DNA from: Octopus vulgaris
Taxonomy: Eukaryota
Direction of reading: 5' to 3'
DNA length: 64,000 nucleotides
NCBI GenBank assembly: GCA_951406725.2
Contig: OX597814.1
Coordinates: 199,392,001-199,456,000, forward strand
A model generated the notes under the pieces. That model had not been told where the DNA came from. It was given only the letters and a program-made list of their open reading frames with translations, and did no database searches. This document shows positions 10,065 through 55,988 of this stretch, in pieces (the stretch's first letter is position 1; the number at the start of each line of letters is the position of its first letter). The position numbers and the translations under genes were made by a program.

Positions 10065-10380
10065 TTTTCTTCTATTCTTTTTACAGTTTCAGTCGTAGGA
10101 CTGCGTCCATGCTAGATCACCGCCTTAATTTGCTTTCTATCGGTTTTGTTTTCGTTTTATGGCTGGAGGTTGGTCTATGATTGTGTTTGTGGCAGCTGAT
10201 TTTTCCAGTTTGTGTATCCTTAAATGGTTGGCTGGTCTTGTATCGTCGTTAGGAATCTATCCAATGTTTTTTTTTTTAATGTTACAGTAGAAGTTCCTTT
10301 TATATTTCTGACTTCTTTAGGTAGAGAGTTTAACAGTTGAGGACCTCTAAATGTCAGACTGTTACAACTGAGTGCTGGGG
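10065..10380 (-). mobile_element. CR1-like LINE 3' end (ORF2 C-terminus plus 3' UTR)
   Basis: NSLTFRGPQLLNSLPKEVRNI...LDRFLTTIQDQP*, then the tail aaggcggtgatctagcatggacgcagtcctacgactgaaac. Confidence 0.75.
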
Positions 10381-10782
10381 CGAGGGGCGAGAGGATATCT
10401 ATGCTCGTGAATTCGAAGATGGTATAGTTGGAAGCTAATAGTGGCCACCACTGGAAATGGATGTAACAGTCCGATCCTTTGATTGGAGTCATGACTTTGT
10501 GTTTGCTGGATTAAAAACAAACCTCAGCGCCTGTTCGCTTATTTTCAAGGAATCAGGATTTGGAAAATGATTCTTTAACCAGGCGTATCTTGGTTTAGGA
10601 ATTATTCTTTACGCAGTAACATTTGTCAATGTAACGGACGATTTAGTAAATATTTTCCATATAACCTAAATCTTATTTATAAGTTTTCTCATATAATCGT
10701 CCATATCAACGGCTCGATTTCGAAACGTTTATGTTCGACTAACAAATTAGCAATTTAAAGTTTAAGCTTCACAAGATATTCA

Positions 10783-11155
10783 TTACCACCGCCTTAGCTA
10801 AGGCGGAGGTATTGTTTTTCACTTGTGTTTGTTTCTTTGTCCGTGGACAAGATATCTCAAGAACCGCTGGGTAGATTCGGATGAAACGTTCAGGGATGTT
10901 TGGCCTCGTAACTGACAAGAACTCATTAGATTTTGGGGTCGATCCAATACCAGACAAGGTTTCTGAATTATTTTTCCGTTTTTCTGTGTTTTTTTTTAAC
11001 TTTTGAGACCAGTTGGGTTCGTTTTTAATATTCTCGTTTGTGAGAGCAGTCGAGTTTATCTCAGATATTCTCACCTTAAAAGCCACCTCTGGCTAATCGT
11101 TGAAAGGAGGATGGTGTTACCTTGGCGGAGGCTTGCCTCTCCGAGTGCTCTTCTT
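10783..11155 (+). mobile_element. HINE/DINE-like non-autonomous Helentron
   Basis: 5' ttaccaccgccttagctaaggcggaggta hairpin, 3' ccttggcggagg plus a terminal stem-loop. Homologous to 31501-31840. Confidence 0.7.
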
Positions 11156-31500: not shown

Positions 31501-31840
31501 TTATTACCTCTGCCTTAGCGAAGGCAGAGGTATTGTTTTCAGTCGTGTTTGTTTGTTTGTCCGTGGACAAGATATCTCAAGAACCGCTGGATGGATTCGG
31601 ATGAAACGTTTACAGATGCTTGACCTCATGACTGGCACGAACTGATTAGATTTGGGGATCGATCCGGTATCGGACAAGTATTTCGGATTATTGTTTCCTG
31701 TTCATTTTCAATATTCTCGTTTGTGAGAGCAGTCGAGTTTATTTCAGATATTCTCATTTTAAAAATCACCTCTGGCTAATCGTTAAGAGGACGTTGGTGT
31801 TGCCTTGGCGGAGGTTTGCGCTCTCTGAGTGCTCTCGTTA
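31501..31840 (+). mobile_element. HINE/DINE-like non-autonomous Helentron
   Basis: ttattacctctgccttagcgaaggcagaggta ... gccttggcggaggtttgcgctctctgagtgc. Confidence 0.75.
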
Positions 31841-33049
31841 GAGATTAAATTTAATAAAATTGAAAATGTTAATTCGTAGATTTTGATGAGCATTTCCCCT
31901 ATTATTGTTTTGCACGCGATGATGGGTCATTGGAGGCATTTGAAACTGCACTGTCGCTATTCATTATTACACCATTTATATTTTCCTTATGTCTATTTCT
32001 TGGGCTCTTACATAACAGAACAGTGCGTAGCGTTTCAGAGCGAATAATTATCAGTATCTAAGAATAATTCTTCTTTCCGTGTTTACCGTAGATGTCTAAT
32101 TTCCGTTTCATAATACCAGCTCTTATAAATCAAAGAAATGTTCTTAAGGTATTCTCTGTTAATATCTTTCACTTTTTATGACCATTGGTCTCATCTATAA
32201 GCGCCAATTCCTAATGATCCTGCTAGTATTTATATTACATGCGTACGCGTATAACATCAAGACTTTCATACATCTCAACAGTTAATGGAATATCAATGAT
32301 TGCACACAACCATATGTCTTGTCAACAGCAACTATAAGAAAGCTTTTCTTGGTATGGTCACAGTGTCTGTAGAAAGCATTATTAATTTCCTCATATCCAT
32401 AGCTGTGGAGGAAAGGAGAGAAGGATAGAGATAGGAGAGAGATGGAGAAGAGACACAGCTACAAAGGCGTAATTGATTACATGTAAAAGAGAAATGGGAA
32501 TAGATATTCATCTGTAATGCATTATGTCCTTGAATAATGAAGATATTACTATTTGTTTTGAAATAAAGGCAGTATTAATTATGTATTTACAGCAGTGGCT
32601 GCATGAAAACTGGGTTTATCAATTGAATACTCTTGCGCATTTTACTCTAAGACATTCAAAGTCTCTCTCCAAATGATATGCATCAATTTCACTGATAATC
32701 TTTCTTTACGATTTCACATCCATTACATAACAGAAACTGGCAGAGGATATGTCAGCTTCCAACAGTTCTACTCTACATTATACGGAGATCCAGCCCACAT
32801 TTAAAACTACTACGCGACTTACTGGAATGGGCGAATTCACCAACACCCGCCAGTCGCTGCAACACAGATTTAAAATACCCTCACGCTGCTTTTTTTGCTG
32901 TTATTACAGTTGCCGCTTCTGTTCAGAGATGGCTGGGGCCAACTCTAAACCAGGCGAACCTGACTCATTTGCCTTTCTTCTCGCCACCCGTATTATCATT
33001 ACGCCCTGCAGCTCTCTACTAATCACTGGTCTCAATCCTCCAGTCCTTG

Positions 33050-33116
33050 GAAGTTCTTCATTTCATTTCATCTAGTTTCAGCTCACGAGCTGTGGCCATG
33101 CTGGGGCACCGCCATT
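33050..33116 (-). mobile_element. CR1-like/SINE-A-type 3' tail fused to the 5S
   Basis: Minus strand tggcggtgccccagcatggccacagctcgtgagctgaaactagatgaaatgaaatgaag. Confidence 0.8.
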
Positions 33117-33121
33117 GAAAG

Positions 33122-33241
33122 ACATTTACAGCACCTAGGTTTCCCAAGTGGTCAACCATCTAAGTACTAACTAGGCTCGACTTTGCTTAACTTCGATGAT
33201 CGGACGAGAACCGGTGTTTTCAAAGTGATATGGCCGTAAAC
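33122..33241 (-). rRNA. 5S rRNA: 5S rRNA gene or recent pseudogene (full length)
   Basis: GTTTACGGCCATATCACTTTGAAAACACCGGTTCTCGTCCGATCATCGAAGTTAAGCAAAGTCGAGCCTAGTTAGTACTTAGATGGTTGACCACTTGGGAAACCTAGGTGCTGTAAAT. Helices I (GTTTACGGC/GCTGTAAAT), II (ACTTTG/CAAAGT) and V (CCTAG/CTAGG) pair. Confidence 0.93.
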
Positions 33242-33251
33242 AAAGAAAATT

Positions 33252-33321
33252 TGACCCCGACGTGATTCGAACACGCGGCCTTCTGATCTGGAGTCAGACG
33301 CTACCGTTGCTCCACAGCGTC
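33252..33321 (-). tRNA. trnW-CCA: tRNA-Trp(CCA), probably a pseudogene
   Basis: GACGCTGTGGAGCAACGGTAGCGTCTGACTCCAGATCAGAAGGCCGCGTGTTCGAATCACGTCGGGGTCA. Anticodon arm and T arm/B box are intact; there is a 2-nt D-stem deletion and a G:G acceptor mismatch. Confidence 0.88.
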
Positions 33322-33374
33322 AAACATGTCTATGATTTCCTAGTAATTGTTCTAAAGATGGGGTTCTCTACCAT

Positions 33375-33738
33375 TTATGTATTTACAGTGGCTGGATGAA
33401 AACTAGGTTTATCAATTGAATACTCTTGCGTATTTTACTCTAAAACATTCATATTTTCATATTTTTCCTGTTCATTTTTAGTATTCTCGTTTCTGAGTGC
33501 AATCGAGTTTATTTCAGATATTCTCATTTTAAAAATCATCCCTGTCTAATCGTTGAGAGGACGTTGGTGTTGCCATGGCGGAGGTTTGTGCTCTCTGAGT
33601 GCTCTTGTTAGAGATTAAATTTAATAAAATTGAAAATGTTAATTCGTAGATTTTAATGAGCATTTCCCCTATTATTGTTTTGCATACGATAATGGGTCAT
33701 TGGAGGCATTTGAAACTACACTGTCGCTATTCATTATT
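33375..33738. repeat. Local duplicated blocks in swapped order
   Basis: 33375-33451 resembles 32579-32658. 33464-33738 resembles 31694-31968, including the HINE 3' end and its flank. Confidence 0.9.
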
Positions 33739-33939
33739 TCGCCTTTTGATTACTGTTCCATTTTGCTGGACCCCACGAGCCATTCGATGTTTAAAAACTA
33801 GTGTTATAGAAACTCCTTCGGAATTCCTATTTTGTTTCTCGTACATTAATTTGTGTAGGTTGAATTATGTAAAACGTTACAGAAAGAAACTTAGCTGTTT
33901 CTTGCAATACATACCAATACATATCAACATATACACCTA

Positions 33940-34049: not shown

Positions 34050-34610
34050 TTCTGGGGCATGATCCTACTGATATCGGAGGGCCTGAGAACCTCAAGGACA
34101 CAATCCCTTCTTTTATACCGAAGAATTATAAAAAACCCTAGTAACTAACTTGTGTGTCTTGATTTCATAAATGCTCCAAACCTCACTAATTGTGTCCAGA
34201 ACAGATAATTTCTGCTTCGTTAATCAGTTTACACGAGTCTAATCGACTCACCAGGGATGTAAGAATAGAAGCTAGAGGTGCTATAACTGATACATTGATT
34301 AAATGTACTAATTATATATTTTAAAATGCTGACCAAAATATGCACTGAAATTTTGAGTCTTAGCCAGTTTGGCGCAGTTAGAATTGAATATATGTTAACG
34401 CTTTTGGCAAACGCTACCTAAGACAAACTGTGTTACATGTTAAACCATAAAACAAATCACATCACCGATACTAGTGATGCTGGACTAGATTGATTTGTAT
34501 AAGTCCCCTTGCGTCAATGATCACACGTAGTGTAAAGGGAAGAGATGTTTCCCGAATTCGACGTACAGCAGCGATAAGCATATTGACATTCGGGTCTGCC
34601 ACAACACATT

Positions 34611-34821
34611 GGTTTCAAATTTTGGCACAAGGCCAGTAATTCCGAGTGAGTGGGTAAGTCGATTATATCGACTGCCGTGCTCAACTCATACTTCTTTTAT
34701 CCACCCCGAAATGATGAAAGTAAAGTAAATCTCGACGGAATTTGAGCGCAGAAGGTAAAGACGTCCGAAATGCCGCTAAGCATTTTGCCCGCGAGCAAAC
34801 GATTCTACCAGCTCACCGGCC
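34611..34821 (-). mobile_element. Diverged SINE family B
   Basis: B head and body with an alternative tail ccttgtgccaaaatttgaaac. Confidence 0.7.
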
Positions 34822-37546
34822 TATTCTGTCAGAACGTATTAAAAATGAATAGATATAATATTATTTAGATTCTCGTTGTTTTGCTTGCTCCCAATGAATC
34901 ATTACCGGTCTATTAGACATCACGTATCGACAAATAATTAGTTTGCAGTTTTCTATAAACAAGGGCCATTACTCTCGTTTACATTTATTGATCCAGGATA
35001 GCTTTGACTGGAGAGACACACAACGATGTTGAAACTCCATGGTTTTTCAAAAGCCCCTTAAGTAATGAATCGCTTGTATTATGAACACACACCGTCCAAA
35101 GTCGGGCGATGTTCTCAGAAGAGGAAGTCAACGTGGAACATATCCACGTTTGAATCAATCAGAATGTATTGAAAATGGATGCGCTTTTGTTAAAACATGT
35201 TCCTTCTCTGGAATATCAAAGTTAAGCATGTAATCAGCCACTGACTCGTCATATTCGTTATGTAATGGATTGTGAGAAACAACGGCATGTTAATAAAGCT
35301 ATTTACCATCATATGATAGATAGGCTCTTCCACCGCTTCTTATCATTTTGTTCTGTATCCTCAACAGGATATTATATCAGCGTAAAATCGACATACAGCG
35401 CACTATACAAGAGAAGCTTAATTATAGTCGTTGAATACCACAGAATTTCGAAGTTGTATCATCTTTCAACGTAGGATTCAACGTAGATGGTATATATTCA
35501 GTGCATTCAATCCTGTTTAGGTTGATAATGTGATTAAAACAAAGATTAATATTTATGATTGTATTTTCACTGATATCAATTCCAAATATCAAACACCGTA
35601 GGGATGCTTACGCAAATTCATTATTTTTATAATTGTTGTTCCATGAATAGAAATATTGCCAACGTATATTTCATGATTACAACTTAATTTAGGGTCATCA
35701 TTTATTTCATCTGGGAGTTTAGCAAACGATTTATTATTTTTTTTGTTTAGTTTTATATATTCTTCTTCGGCAGTTTCACGTGCTCCTTACAAAGATGAAA
35801 ATAACTGAATCGAACATTTCCTTCTTAAGACAATAACCTGGGGGTTATTTTAAGAAGAAAACTAATATCTGATAAATCTGGTTCTATCCATATAAAAGCT
35901 TTAAGGAATTGAAATTCTTGTGTGTATAAATTAAATTTATTTAAAGCACACGAACGTTTCAACTACTTAATTGAAATTCTAGGATGTACGCACATCTTTA
36001 TAAATCACCTAATCAAGGCAGTTTAATTAGCTATCGGAAAATTGGTGGCGTCATTTATCCTGTTTAAGAATTATTGTCAACCAATTAATATAATTAGATT
36101 AGGTTTTATTTTTGTAAATGAATGCATTTTGTACGAACTCATCTATCGTGCGTTTGTCTTGCATTGACATGCATAACGCACAGAAAAGAAATGCACCGAA
36201 TGAATTCTCTTTGGTTGGATGATTGATTACAGCTCTTCAAAATAGATTGAGATTAAAATTTACAATTAAAACAATTAAAACCAAATTCTTCAAAAGAATT
36301 ATTTTCTGTTTACACTCTTACTTAACATAGGAAAGTACTTGAGAAATAAAACCTGTTACTGAAATTAGATATTTTTCTTAGCTAATCAATATTTGAGATA
36401 TAAAAGTACTAATTTATTCTTTTCCCGATTAAGTCATTTGAAATATGAAACAATGAAGTATTTGAATGGTACTGTAGATCGCTATTTCACCCTTTATTCT
36501 TTCTAGTTTCGCATTATTCTTACCCGCCGTTAAATATTTTCTACCTCGACCTCGCAAGCGGGAACCTATAAACTCATATTGTAGAGCTTATTACGCTGCA
36601 AATATATTATTAAGTTATCTAAAGCCACTACGCAGTATGCATATCCAAAACGCTGGCTAATTTGAATATAACTGTATTGTATCTCCTTTTATTATCGCAA
36701 GGTCTTAAACGTGCATAAAAGTAATATTCTTTGTGATATTTTTCAGGAGAATATCGAGAGAGGTGCAATGCCGTTTTTGTTATTATATATAACGTCTATC
36801 TAAACTAAAATAAGGTATTCGCTTCATGAAATCGGTTTTTCGCAGCCTTCTGCCTCTCTGATTAAGAACTGTAACAGATAATTGAGGTATGCATCGAAAT
36901 CCACAATATCTAATCAGTCACTCCTCGCAAACATTTCGGTAAAATACTGTTGGAAAACTATAGACGTCTGCTTGAAATCGAATAGCATCTCTCACCCCAC
37001 GCCAGCTGGGGTGGGGGTGTCAGAGGCCGAATTCGCAATGTAATTAGATTATGTTACTTTCTCGCTTTCCGGGCCCATACCACGCTTTCGTGCCTTCCTT
37101 TCGTTAATTCTTTTGTTAATTCGAAGATTTTGAGACTAAGTTTGATCGCTAGCACGTTAACTGTGATACCTTTTCTAAACCAGTGAATGATCTTTGCTAT
37201 ACTGTTCTTTACAGCTTTTTCTTGGCTAAAGCTAACAAATGTTGACCTGATTTTCTCTTTTGACGTGACCCGTCACTTTGTTTTCTTTTGATAATGATCG
37301 CCGTCAATTCCCGCTTAACTAGTTCGCTAATCCGGTCCATGAAAGTCTTGGAAAAACATGCATAGCTCTAAATCCAAACAATTTCGAAACAGTATTCTCA
37401 CGTTCCTCCACACTGGTCGATCAATTGAAGAATTAGTTCAGCGACATCCCAAAAGGGAATGTGCGAATTCCTCTCGGAAATCCTGGTCACGTGAGGGTTC
37501 TTTCATCTAGTTTTAATAAACCGAGTTCTTTGAGATTACTTTACGT

Positions 37547-39793: not shown

Positions 39794-41223
39794 CAGTGGG
39801 GGCAAATAAATATTCGTACATGTCAAAATTCTTTATTTAATTTCTAATGAACATAAATGTGATATACCAATACTATATTTGCATACACGTGCATAAACTA
39901 AGAATATACAAAAAAAACTAATAAATTATAGTAACTAATGAATTTATATACAATTATAAATATTTAGGGGTGAAAAAAGTATTCGTCCAGAATAAATTTA
40001 TGATTTTCTATGCCACAAAATACTGTTCAAATATTTTTTTTTATAAGAACTTTCTCGTTTGTTCCAATAATCTTAACAGTTGTTAAGTGTCAGAACGCTA
40101 GCTTCTTCATTCAGAACTGAGACAACATAAAGTAGTATCGTAATAATGGCGAAAAGTAAAGAACTCACGAATTCAGTGAAAAACTTAATTATTGAACAGT
40201 GGAAAGCAGGTAAGAGTTACAGGAAAATATCAGAGACCCTTTGTATTCCATTTTCTACCATATCTTCATTTATTCAAAGATATAAAAAAATCGGGAACTG
40301 TTGAAAATAGAATAAGATCCGGTGCACCATGCAAGATTTCCCCCCTGATCTTTAAGAAAAATGAAGCGAAGAATCGAAATAAAACGCAATGATCACCAGA
40401 AAGGAGTTGCAAGAAGATGTGTTAGCTTCAAGGACTAATGTTACACAACGAACAATCAGCAATGAACTTCATACGAATGAACTGAAGTGACGCTCTCCTA
40501 GAAAAACTACGCTGTTGACTAAAAGGCATAGAGATGCCTGTTTAAAATTTGTTTATGAACATAAAGATAAATCTGATACATTCTGGGAAAATGTTCTATG
40601 GACAGACGAGTCGAAAACTGAATTGTTTGGACGAAATTCGCTTAGCCATGTTTGGAGGAAAGATGGTACCACCTATTCGCCGAAAAACACAATTTCTACC
40701 GTAAAGTTTGGAGGTGGCAACATCATGGTGTGGGGGTGTTTCTCTGCAAAGGGTACTGGCAATTTACATGTGATAGATGGTAGAAGGAATGCAGAGATGT
40801 ACCAAAATATTTTGAACAACAATTTATGGGATTCTGCAGAAAAGCTTCAGCTTTGTGAAGGGTGGGTTTTACAAGATAACGACCCTAAGCACACGGCGAA
40901 GTCTACCAAAAGATGGACAGTCGATCACAATATAAAATTATTAGTATGGCCACGCCAGTCACCTGACTTAAACTCCATTGAAAATTTGTGGCGTTATTTG
41001 AAAATTACAATTCAGTCAAGAGTCCCAAAGTACATTGCAGATTTGAAGAAAATTTGTCAAGAAAAATGGGAAAAAATTCCTAAAGAAACATGCAAGTCAT
41101 TGATTAAGAACTACAAGAAGAGATTGGTTGAAGTGGAACTGAATAATGGTTATGCTACGAAGTATTAAATGAGAATTATCAGTTATTTATGTTCTGTACG
41201 AATACTTTTTTCACCCCTAAATA
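39794..41223 (+). mobile_element. Tc1 (DD34E) transposon, IR/DR type, right end truncated
   Basis: TA|CAGTGGGGGCAAATAAATATTCGTAC left end. Inner DR at 39961-39995 is mirrored at 41185-41223. Confidence 0.9.
40146..41168 (+). pseudogene. Tc1 transposase pseudogene
   Basis: MAKSKELT..GKSYRKISETL (HTH, frameshifted), WTDESK, LQDNDPKH, SPDLNSIENLW, with exactly 34 residues between D and E. Confidence 0.92.
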
Positions 41224-42799: not shown

Positions 42800-43250
42800 A
42801 TTTATTCTTCTTAATCCTTTTTGCCCCTTGTGGAGCATAGGGCCTCAACAATTGTTTTCCACTTTTTGCGGTCATTGGCGTGTTTATTTGCTGCTTCCCA
42901 TGTCAGGCCGGTGGTCCTGAGCTCGTCCAAAATACTCCGCTTCCATGTCTGCTTCGGGCATCCTCGCTTCCTTTTCTCCTGCGGGTTCCAGTCAAGTGCT
43001 TGTTGTGTCACATTTGAGGGTTCTTTCTGCAGTGTGTGTCCGATCCATCTCCATTTCCTTCGTCTAATCTGAGCATGTATGGGCTCCTGGTTGGCCCTTT
43101 CCCACAGGTCGGTGTTTGGCACTCTGTCGAACCACTTCAGATGGAGGATCTGACGGAGACATTTGTTGATGAAGGTCTGTATCTTCTTTTAGTTGCTGCA
43201 GGTGACACTCCATGTTTCAGAGCCATACAAAAGCACAGATTTTATGTTAA
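42800..43250 (-). mobile_element. RTE-clade LINE 3' end
   Basis: NTDLWERANQEPI..QIRRRKWRWIGHTL...ALDWNPQEKRKRGCPKQTWKRS...ALCS. Confidence 0.9.
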
Positions 43251-55399: not shown

Positions 55400-55614
55400 T
55401 TAAAGACACATACCATAAAACGCACTCCACCGTCTTTGAGAACGACACATTCAATTATATGGTCCTAAGTTCGTCGTTGGAAAAACTGAATGGTCACGGT
55501 AGGAAGGCTTTTGATCATGTCTGTTCGTCCAAGACTAACTGAGGAATAAAACAAGTTTGACAATAACGACCGCCTCTGTTTGAAATCACGCCTCGATCAT
55601 AGATTGTTTTACCT

Positions 55615-55988
55615 TTCACTTGTTTCAATCATTAGACTGCGGCCATGCTGGGGCACCGCCTTCAAAAGATTTTTAGTCGAATGAATCGACACCAGTACTC
55701 ATTTTCTTTCTTTAATCTACTAGTCTTATTTGCCGAACTGCTAATTTACAGGGACATACACAAACCAATACCGGCTGTCAAGCTGTGGGCAGGGGACGAA
55801 CACAGATACAAAAAGACCCCACCCCACACACACACACACACGACAGACGTCCTTTAGTTTCCGTCTACAAGATCCACTCATAAGGCTTTGGTTGGCCCGG
55901 GGCTAACTTGCCAAAGGTGTCTCGCAGTGGGACTGAACCCGGAACAATGTGGCTTGGAAGCAAACTCATTACCACTCCTTCACGCTTG
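55615..55988 (-). mobile_element. Diverged SINE family A
   Basis: Older family A variant. Confidence 0.78.

What the first reader, a model, noticed from the sequence alone, without database searches (positions are those of the whole stretch)
33122..33321. Asymmetric decay: the 5S keeps its fold while the upstream tRNA keeps only its promoter boxes
Seen in sequence: the 5S helices pair (ACTTTG/CAAAGT, GTTTACGGC/GCTGTAAAT, CCTAG/CTAGG). The tRNA has a broken D-stem and an acceptor mismatch but retains an A-box-like TGGAGCAACGG and a perfect B box GTTCGAATC. Inference: the tRNA may act as a type-2 promoter or leader for TFIIIA-independent 5S transcription, as in Yarrowia dicistronic genes. Ten nt leaves no room for independent upstream 5S elements outside the tRNA. 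Caveat: the spacer contains T4, which can terminate metazoan Pol III.
Basis: partly seen in the sequence, partly recalled or inferred. Interest (0 to 1): 0.72.

Follow-up and report, generated by a model that had tools for sequence, protein, structure and literature searches.

The report
Octopus tRNA–5S retroposon copy
In an octopus genome, a damaged tRNA gene and a well-folded 5S ribosomal RNA copy sit head to tail and end in the tail of a jumping element, so this is most likely a copy of a composite mobile element rather than a working ribosomal gene.

Summary
Both RNAs are there (Rfam: 5S 108 bits, tRNA-Trp-like 44.7 bits, 10 nt apart, minus strand). The 5S has no T4 terminator (126 of 128 invertebrate relatives have one within 10 nt). 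It runs straight into a two-hairpin retroposon 3' tail ending in three 5-nt repeats. Eight SINE copies and one LINE-like end in this window share that tail. The genus is Octopus, and O. vulgaris has four undescribed '5S' SINE families (9.8 Mb, about one copy per 64 kb). The 5S fold is real: 35 of 35 helix pairs, six two-sided G-C to A-T changes, P<1e-4. That shows a structurally selected source, not selection on this copy, which also has a broken loop-D/box-C base. 'Keeps only its promoter boxes' is wrong: the anticodon and T arms are intact, and the asymmetry is not significant (Fisher p 0.11-1.0). Best reading (about 0.5): a copy of a composite tRNA-5S-LINE-tail SINE with the tRNA as type-2 promoter. 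A live Yarrowia-type dicistronic 5S gene is unlikely here (about 0.07). Copy number and expression could not be measured.

The parts
33252..33321 (-). tRNA-Trp(CCA)-like head: anticodon and T arms intact, B box perfect, A box imperfect, acceptor pair 4 mismatched, D arm 2 nt short
33242..33251 (-). 10-nt T-rich spacer with a run of four T and then three T; looks like the tRNA gene's own trailer and terminator
33123..33241 (-). full-length 5S rRNA sequence starting at +1; all helices pair; A+T-shifted (GC 0.445, below all 82 relatives); U46 and U87 at near-invariant sites; no T4 terminator (next T4 248 nt downstream)
33057..33122 (-). SINE/LINE-type 3' tail: hairpin 1 at 33114-33093, hairpin 2 at 33092-33079, then three 5-nt repeats at 33071-33057. 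Homology to the copy at 55614-55675 reaches the 5S 3' end (33066-33128, 80% over 64 nt)
32579..32658 (.). flanking direct repeat B (91% identical to B')
33375..33451 (.). flanking direct repeat B', 53 nt upstream of the tRNA
33460..33747 (.). block A', a 93% copy of 31689-31977; local duplication abutting B'
10073..10510 (-). context: LINE-like 3' end (broken reading frame, then the same tail), the likely kind of partner element
   Evidence: clade not established

Best explanation
33321->33057 is one genomic copy of a composite Pol III retroposon (SINE): tRNA-Trp head, T-rich trailer, full-length 5S, LINE-derived two-hairpin tail. SHOWN: the three parts, their order and strand, the missing T4 after the 5S, and the tail shared with nine other repeats in the window. 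INFERRED: in the master copy TFIIIC binds the tRNA's A and B boxes, so transcription needs neither TFIIIA nor upstream 5S signals. Pol III partly reads through the T-run and the weak T-C-T3 after the 5S. A partner LINE's reverse transcriptase recognises the tail hairpins and inserts the RNA by target-primed reverse transcription. The likely origin is a 5S-tail retroposon that landed just behind a tRNA-Trp gene, or a template switch; the tRNA then supplied the promoter that retroposed 5S copies lack. The 5S fold and its two-sided changes were inherited from a structurally selected source (the octopus 5S or the master); this copy has probably decayed neutrally since.
For: The tail motif occurs 10 times in the window, 0 expected. 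8 of the 10 lie 303-425 nt behind a shared SINE head, and 1 follows a LINE-like broken frame. The tail begins at the 5S 3' end. 126 of 128 relatives have T4 within 10 nt of the 5S; here the first T4 is at +248. The tail folds into the same two hairpins as SINE copy 21581, with two pairs of hairpin 2 changed on both sides, so it comes from a separately evolving tail lineage, not a decayed local SINE. The genus is Octopus: a SINE frame of this window matches O. bimaculoides and O. vulgaris proteins at 80-90%. O. vulgaris has SINE/5S = 4 families, 9,831,953 bp (PMC13282606 Suppl. Table 1), i.e. 0.8-1.2 copies per 64 kb at 190-270 bp each if the genome is 2.8 Gb; this is the only 5S-like sequence in the window. 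Chance landing within 20 nt of a tRNA end is expected 0.1-2 times per genome under assumed counts, which favours a family trait. Retroposed 5S promoters are thought to be weak without upstream signals (PMC3272025 passage citing Kapitonov and Jurka).
Against: No second copy of the tRNA-5S or 5S-tail junction was found by any route, so the family is inferred, not seen. The T4 run in the spacer should stop most Pol III before the 5S: T4 was very efficient in vitro, leaky in vivo (PMC3141230 passages, human Pol III). No target-site duplication: the longest shared stretch is 5 nt, at chance level, though none of the 8 sister SINEs shows a clear one either. Zero broken helix pairs is somewhat unlikely if this copy took 4-5 neutral hits (P 0.11-0.07).
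Confidence: 0.5

Rival explanations
1. Sequential insertion: a 5S-tail retroposon (SINE3-like family without tRNA head) landed at the terminator of a tRNA-Trp gene, which later decayed. The tRNA is a neighbour, not a head.
For: The spacer looks like an ordinary tRNA trailer with T4. The 5S starts exactly at +1. The tail ends in short repeats followed by a matching 3-nt stretch, as expected for priming by microhomology (read by eye).
Against: Expected only 0.1-2 times per genome by chance under assumed counts. The tRNA is about as damaged as the flanking duplications (7-9%), which fits one event of one age.
Confidence: 0.17
2. One-off chimera: a LINE reverse transcriptase switched from a tail-bearing RNA to a real tRNA-Trp-5S co-transcript (or the RNAs were ligated), leaving a fossil of a dicistronic precursor made elsewhere.
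For: Same-strand, full-length small RNA joined to a LINE 3' end is the U6/L1 pattern (bioRxiv 10.1101/2025.02.02.635956 passages). Short similarity between the 5S end and the tail lineage at the joint.
Against: In human L1 chimeras 5S and tRNA parts are mostly truncated and antisense (same paper). Such events are rare per genome. No precursor is known.
Confidence: 0.12
3. Orphon: a DNA-level piece of a 5S array whose unit carries a tRNA-Trp, copied here with the local duplications; a 5'-truncated tail inserted later at the 5S terminator.
For: The block lies between 80-bp direct repeats 793 nt apart and beside a 289-bp duplication. 5S-tRNA linkage in arrays is reported for mussels and a fish (PMC3464664 passage). 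The 'recently active' 5S family of O. vulgaris averages 6 kb per insertion, like arrays.
Against: It needs a second event exactly at the 5S end. Of 159 loci with relatives' 5S only 2 hold a tRNA, neither head-to-tail upstream. Block A' copies nearby DNA, so the repeats look local.
Confidence: 0.13
4. One reading: a live dicistronic gene in which a relaxed tRNA leader drives TFIIIA-independent synthesis of a functional 5S variant.
For: All helices pair, with six two-sided changes. The box C changes would be tolerated without TFIIIA (inference). T-C-T3 can act as a weak terminator (PMC3141230). Eight runs of three organism labels hold half or more of the 991-bp stretch.
Against: T4 between the genes, GNRA loop broken (intact in 79 of 82 relatives), damaged leader and A box, no canonical terminator, retroposon tail, asymmetry not significant.
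Confidence: 0.07

Closest known systems
SINE3 and other 5S-headed SINEs (zebrafish SINE3/AmnSINE1 with CR1 partner, Ped-1, HaSE3)
   Same: 5S-derived part joined to a 3' tail shared with a LINE and with tRNA SINEs of the same genome, ending in short repeats (PMC3747384 table; PMC3272025 passages).
   Different: Here a whole tRNA gene precedes the 5S, the 5S is full length with all helices kept, and there is no body between 5S and tail. A 2024 review lists 5S SINEs from reptiles, insects, fish and mammals only (PMC10946416 passage).
MEG-TR of fruit bats
   Same: Listed as a 5S-derived SINE. That it is a tRNA+5S composite is recalled, not seen in a call.
   Different: Recalled as a mammalian L1-mobilised, A-tailed element; this one has a structured LINE-type tail.
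Yarrowia lipolytica dicistronic tRNA-5S genes
   Same: tRNA directly 5' of a 5S at +1, same strand, with type-2 promoter boxes.
   Different: There: 48 copies, leaders processed correctly, 4-7 nt gaps, fused 5S like free 5S, expression shown. Here: damaged leader, 10-nt gap with T4, no T4 after the 5S, retroposon tail.
U6/L1-type chimeric retrogenes
   Same: Full-length Pol III RNA fused in sense to a LINE 3' end.
   Different: Those are L1 products with 7-19 bp duplications in most cases checked; their 5S and tRNA parts are mostly truncated and antisense.
Undescribed 'SINE/5S' families of Octopus vulgaris (PMC13282606)
   Same: Same genus; abundance fits about one copy per window.

Membership tests
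SINE (SINEBase definition, PMC3531059) | under 1 kb, at least 60% identity to a tRNA or 5S over 60 nt or more | tested here: met
   265 nt; Rfam full-length hits; 5S 87% identical to the closest relative
SINE (SINEBase definition, PMC3531059) | at least 100 interspersed copies per genome | not testable with these tools
   no genome held; no read depth obtained; protein-frame searches uninformative (control 78)
SINE (SINEBase definition, PMC3531059) | 3' region shared with a LINE and terminal simple repeats | tested here: met
   the LINE nature of the 10105 copy rests on a recalled motif, Pfam gave nothing
SINE (SINEBase definition, PMC3531059) | diagnostic changes shared among copies and absent from the cellular RNA gene (SINE versus RNA pseudogene) | not testable with these tools
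   no second copy and no octopus 5S or tRNA-Trp reference obtained
Retroposed insertion | target-site duplication | tested here: inconclusive
   longest match 5 nt, chance level; sister SINEs lack clear ones too
Yarrowia-type dicistronic tRNA-5S gene | functional leader tRNA | tested here: not met
   D arm 2 nt short, acceptor mismatch, ARAGORN negative
Yarrowia-type dicistronic tRNA-5S gene | no terminator between the genes, terminator after the 5S | tested here: not met
   T4 in the spacer; first downstream T4 at +248
Yarrowia-type dicistronic tRNA-5S gene | co-transcript detected and processed without TFIIIA | not testable with these tools
   no RNA data laid
Functional eukaryotic 5S rRNA gene | helices I-V pair | tested here: met
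   35 of 35 pairs
Functional eukaryotic 5S rRNA gene | conserved loop D and box C; T4+ terminator | tested here: not met
   U87 in 1 of 82, GNRA in 79 of 82; T4 within 10 nt in 126 of 128 relatives, not here
TRIM with Pol III head (Helenus, Ajax, Cassandra) | small-RNA sequence inside two LTRs, with primer site, purine tract and 4-5 bp duplication | tested here: not met
   tRNA and 5S lie between the 80-bp repeats, not in them; no matching 4-5 bp flanks seen by eye (PMC10886601 passages)

The most novel reading that the evidence does not exclude
Octopus carries a tRNA-Trp-5S transcription unit, mobile or ribosomal, that makes a full-length, A+U-shifted but correctly folding 5S from a tRNA promoter without TFIIIA. 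The leaky T-runs at both joints could release free 5S-like RNA or the whole tail-bearing RNA, so that a SINE would double as a dispersed 5S source: an animal counterpart of the Yarrowia genes.
Probability: 0.12. Interest if true: 0.75.

Novelty: new variant of a known kind. Interest (0 to 1): 0.4.

Why it matters
If it is a family, it is a mollusc SINE with a tRNA promoter, an intact-folding full-length 5S and a LINE tail. That would give a structure to the unexplained 9.8 Mb of '5S' SINEs in O. vulgaris and warn that such copies inflate 5S and tRNA-Trp gene counts. It would also show how a 5S retrocopy gains mobility by capturing an upstream tRNA gene. The strongly compensated G-C to A-T shift points to an unusual octopus 5S lineage, whichever model holds. 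If it is a single dead chimera, it is a curiosity.

Tried and rejected
Own genome: none held. Laying runs gave no data, so depth, variants, junction counts and expression stay open. Exact tRNA-5S junction pattern: 0 in metagenome contigs and 0 in viral contigs. 5S patterns in viral contigs: 0. The tail is absent from all 159 fetched loci, and none looks cephalopod (best 87%). Spurious-gene searches over the 5S-tail joint: none and 4 chance hits to repetitive proteins. The control with the abundant SINE gave only 6 hits among 8 candidates, so these blanks say nothing on copy number. LINE clade: Pfam 0 families; Atlas only unnamed clusters at 0.92-0.93. Single-strand folding was uninformative (z -1.0 for the 5S, -0.5 for the tRNA). 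TRIM/LTR reading of the 80-bp repeats was rejected. Earlier scan findings: none. Literature: nine searches found no description of an octopus tRNA-5S unit or octopus 5S sequence. The library lacks most subscription papers, such as Ohshima and Okada 1994 and Gogolevsky 2009 (seen only as references); SINEBase supplements were not available.

Full report
Observation. Rfam finds a full-length 5S at 33241->33123 (108.3 bits) and a tRNA at 33321->33252 (44.7 bits), both on the minus strand and 10 nt apart; ARAGORN calls no tRNA. The tRNA has a CCA anticodon, 5/5 anticodon-stem pairs, 5/5 T-stem pairs, 6/7 acceptor pairs and a D arm 2 nt too short. Its B box has no mismatch; its A box has two against the 12-nt consensus used, a recalled motif. 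So the damage described is real, but the tRNA keeps far more than its boxes.

The 5S against relatives. 141 of 159 gave a full 119-nt gene, 89 were distinct, and 82 were kept at 70% or more ungapped identity; 7 were dropped. Positions 26-45 are invariant by construction. The closest relative is 87% identical, and none carries the tail. The window's 5S differs from their consensus at 20 sites, 17 of them G/C to A/T; its GC of 0.445 is below all 82. It breaks none of 35 helix pairs and has six two-sided changes; a null keeping the same mutation spectrum gives 6.4 broken and 1.1 compensated (P 6e-5 and below 2e-5; against the closest relative 4 compensations, P 2.6e-4). The sequence therefore descends from a 5S under structural selection. 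This says nothing on when selection stopped, because the source gene is unknown. One-sided oddities exist: U46 (0 of 82), U87 (1 of 82; it breaks the GNRA loop of 79 of 82 and lies in box C), and changes at 93, 103 and 118. 22 of 82 relatives also have two or more departures at near-invariant sites, so these alone do not prove decay. With 2-5 events in the tRNA and 2-5 in the 5S, Fisher p is 0.11-1.0: asymmetric decay is not demonstrated. The upper tRNA count rests on my recall of animal tRNA-Trp; only the mismatch and the deletion follow from the sequence itself.

The part that was missed. 126 of 128 relatives with 40 nt of flank have T4 within 10 nt of the 5S end; here only T-C-T3 follows and the first T4 is 248 nt away. 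What follows is a repeat: a 20-nt motif at 33113->33094 has 10 matches in the window, none in 100 shuffles. Eight lie 303-425 nt behind a shared head, whose five copies examined carry A/B-box-like motifs; the name OR1 for this family is recalled. One, at 10105, follows a broken frame ending like a CR1/L2-type ORF2 (the likeness is recalled, Pfam and the Atlas did not name it). Homology with the copy at 55614-55675 runs up to the last bases of the 5S. The tail folds into the same two hairpins as SINE copy 21581, with two pairs of the second changed on both sides, and ends in three 5-nt repeats of a different unit. It is thus a sister tail from a separately evolving lineage. No target-site duplication exceeds chance, but the eight sister SINEs show none either: at most 6 nt in seven, a TA microsatellite in the eighth.

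Organism and context. A frame of the window's SINE matches O. bimaculoides and O. vulgaris proteins at 80-90%. PMC13282606 (passages and whole supplement read) lists four SINE/5S families covering 9.83 Mb in O. vulgaris, with no description in what I read. At 190-270 bp per copy that is 0.8-1.2 per 64 kb, and this is the only 5S-like sequence in the window. The label is automatic and may cover other things. The block lies between 80-bp repeats (91%) and beside a 289-bp local duplication (93%). Eight runs from five studies and three organism labels hold half or more of the words of 32470-33460; one may be the source of the assembly and none was laid, but an assembly artefact is unlikely.

Mechanism. 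Best reading, about 0.5: a copy of a composite SINE. The tRNA gives a self-contained type-2 promoter, which a retroposed 5S lacks (argument of Kapitonov and Jurka as cited in PMC3272025, passages). Pol III reads through to the tail, and a LINE reverse transcriptase recognises the hairpins and inserts the RNA. The anatomy is shown; promoter use, read-through, family status and partner are inferred. The main difficulty is the spacer T4, efficient in vitro but leaky in vivo for human Pol III (PMC3141230, passages); it may also be private to this copy. Rivals: a 5S-tail element that landed at a tRNA terminator (0.17; expected 0.1-2 times per genome under assumed counts; it may also be how the composite began), an orphon of a tRNA-bearing 5S array with a later tail (0.13), a one-off chimera from a real co-transcript (0.12), and a live dicistronic gene (0.07).

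Comparison. It works like SINE3-type elements (PMC3747384 table and PMC4824008, passages) and probably like bat MEG-TR (listed in PMC10946416; its tRNA+5S build is recalled). SINE membership fails no tested feature, but the copy-number criterion of SINEBase (PMC3531059, passages) is untested. It is not a member of the Yarrowia class (PMC2566860: abstract, section 13, passages): leader integrity and terminator placement both fail. L1 chimeras (bioRxiv 10.1101/2025.02.02.635956, passages) mostly hold truncated, antisense 5S and tRNA. Helenus and Ajax (PMC10886601, passages) carry the small RNA inside LTRs, which this does not. PMC4758252, PMC8967140 and PMC9115989 (passages) gave nothing on octopus 5S elements; PMC3464664 (passages) notes 5S-tRNA linkage in mussels and a fish. 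Nine searches found no description of this arrangement in cephalopods; the library lacks most subscription journals.

Limits and verdict. No genome was held and no reads or contigs were laid. No second copy was seen, so copy number, the expressed octopus 5S and transcription are all open; the protein-frame searches were too weak to matter. New variant of a known kind; interest 0.4.

Noticed in passing
window 33297-33321: The altered 5' end of the tRNA pairs with the shortened D-arm 3' side (8-pair hairpin in the lowest-energy fold; 6 Watson-Crick pairs of the first 8 nt against 4 in the next register). It could be one templated mutation event or a family-level refolding of the head.
   Followed up: partly
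window 33123-33241: GC 0.445, below all 82 relatives (mean 0.555); 17 of 20 differences are G/C to A/T, yet all helices pair. Octopus 5S, a second 5S type or a SINE-master trait: unresolved.
   Followed up: partly
window 31689-31977 / 33460-33747 and 32579-32658 / 33375-33451: Two local duplications (93% and 91%) meet just upstream of the tRNA, suggesting a templated complex insertion of one age.
   Followed up: partly
window 31503-31835 and 10782-11151: Two copies (77%) of a repeat with a terminal palindrome at 31505-31532; resembles Helentron-associated elements (recalled).
   Followed up: no
window 34610-34826 and about 20 other places: A second abundant short repeat family, 70-81% identical among copies; probably another octopus SINE.
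   Followed up: no
window 40491-41168 (+) and 42811-43188 (-): Open frames of 225 and 125 aa resembling a Tc1-type transposase and the end of an RTE-type reverse transcriptase (likeness recalled, not searched).
   Followed up: no
proteins P0006, P0008, P0010, P0011: Annotated O. bimaculoides proteins hold a 40-aa stretch translated from the window's SINE: exonised SINE or gene-model error.
   Followed up: no
   Followed up: no
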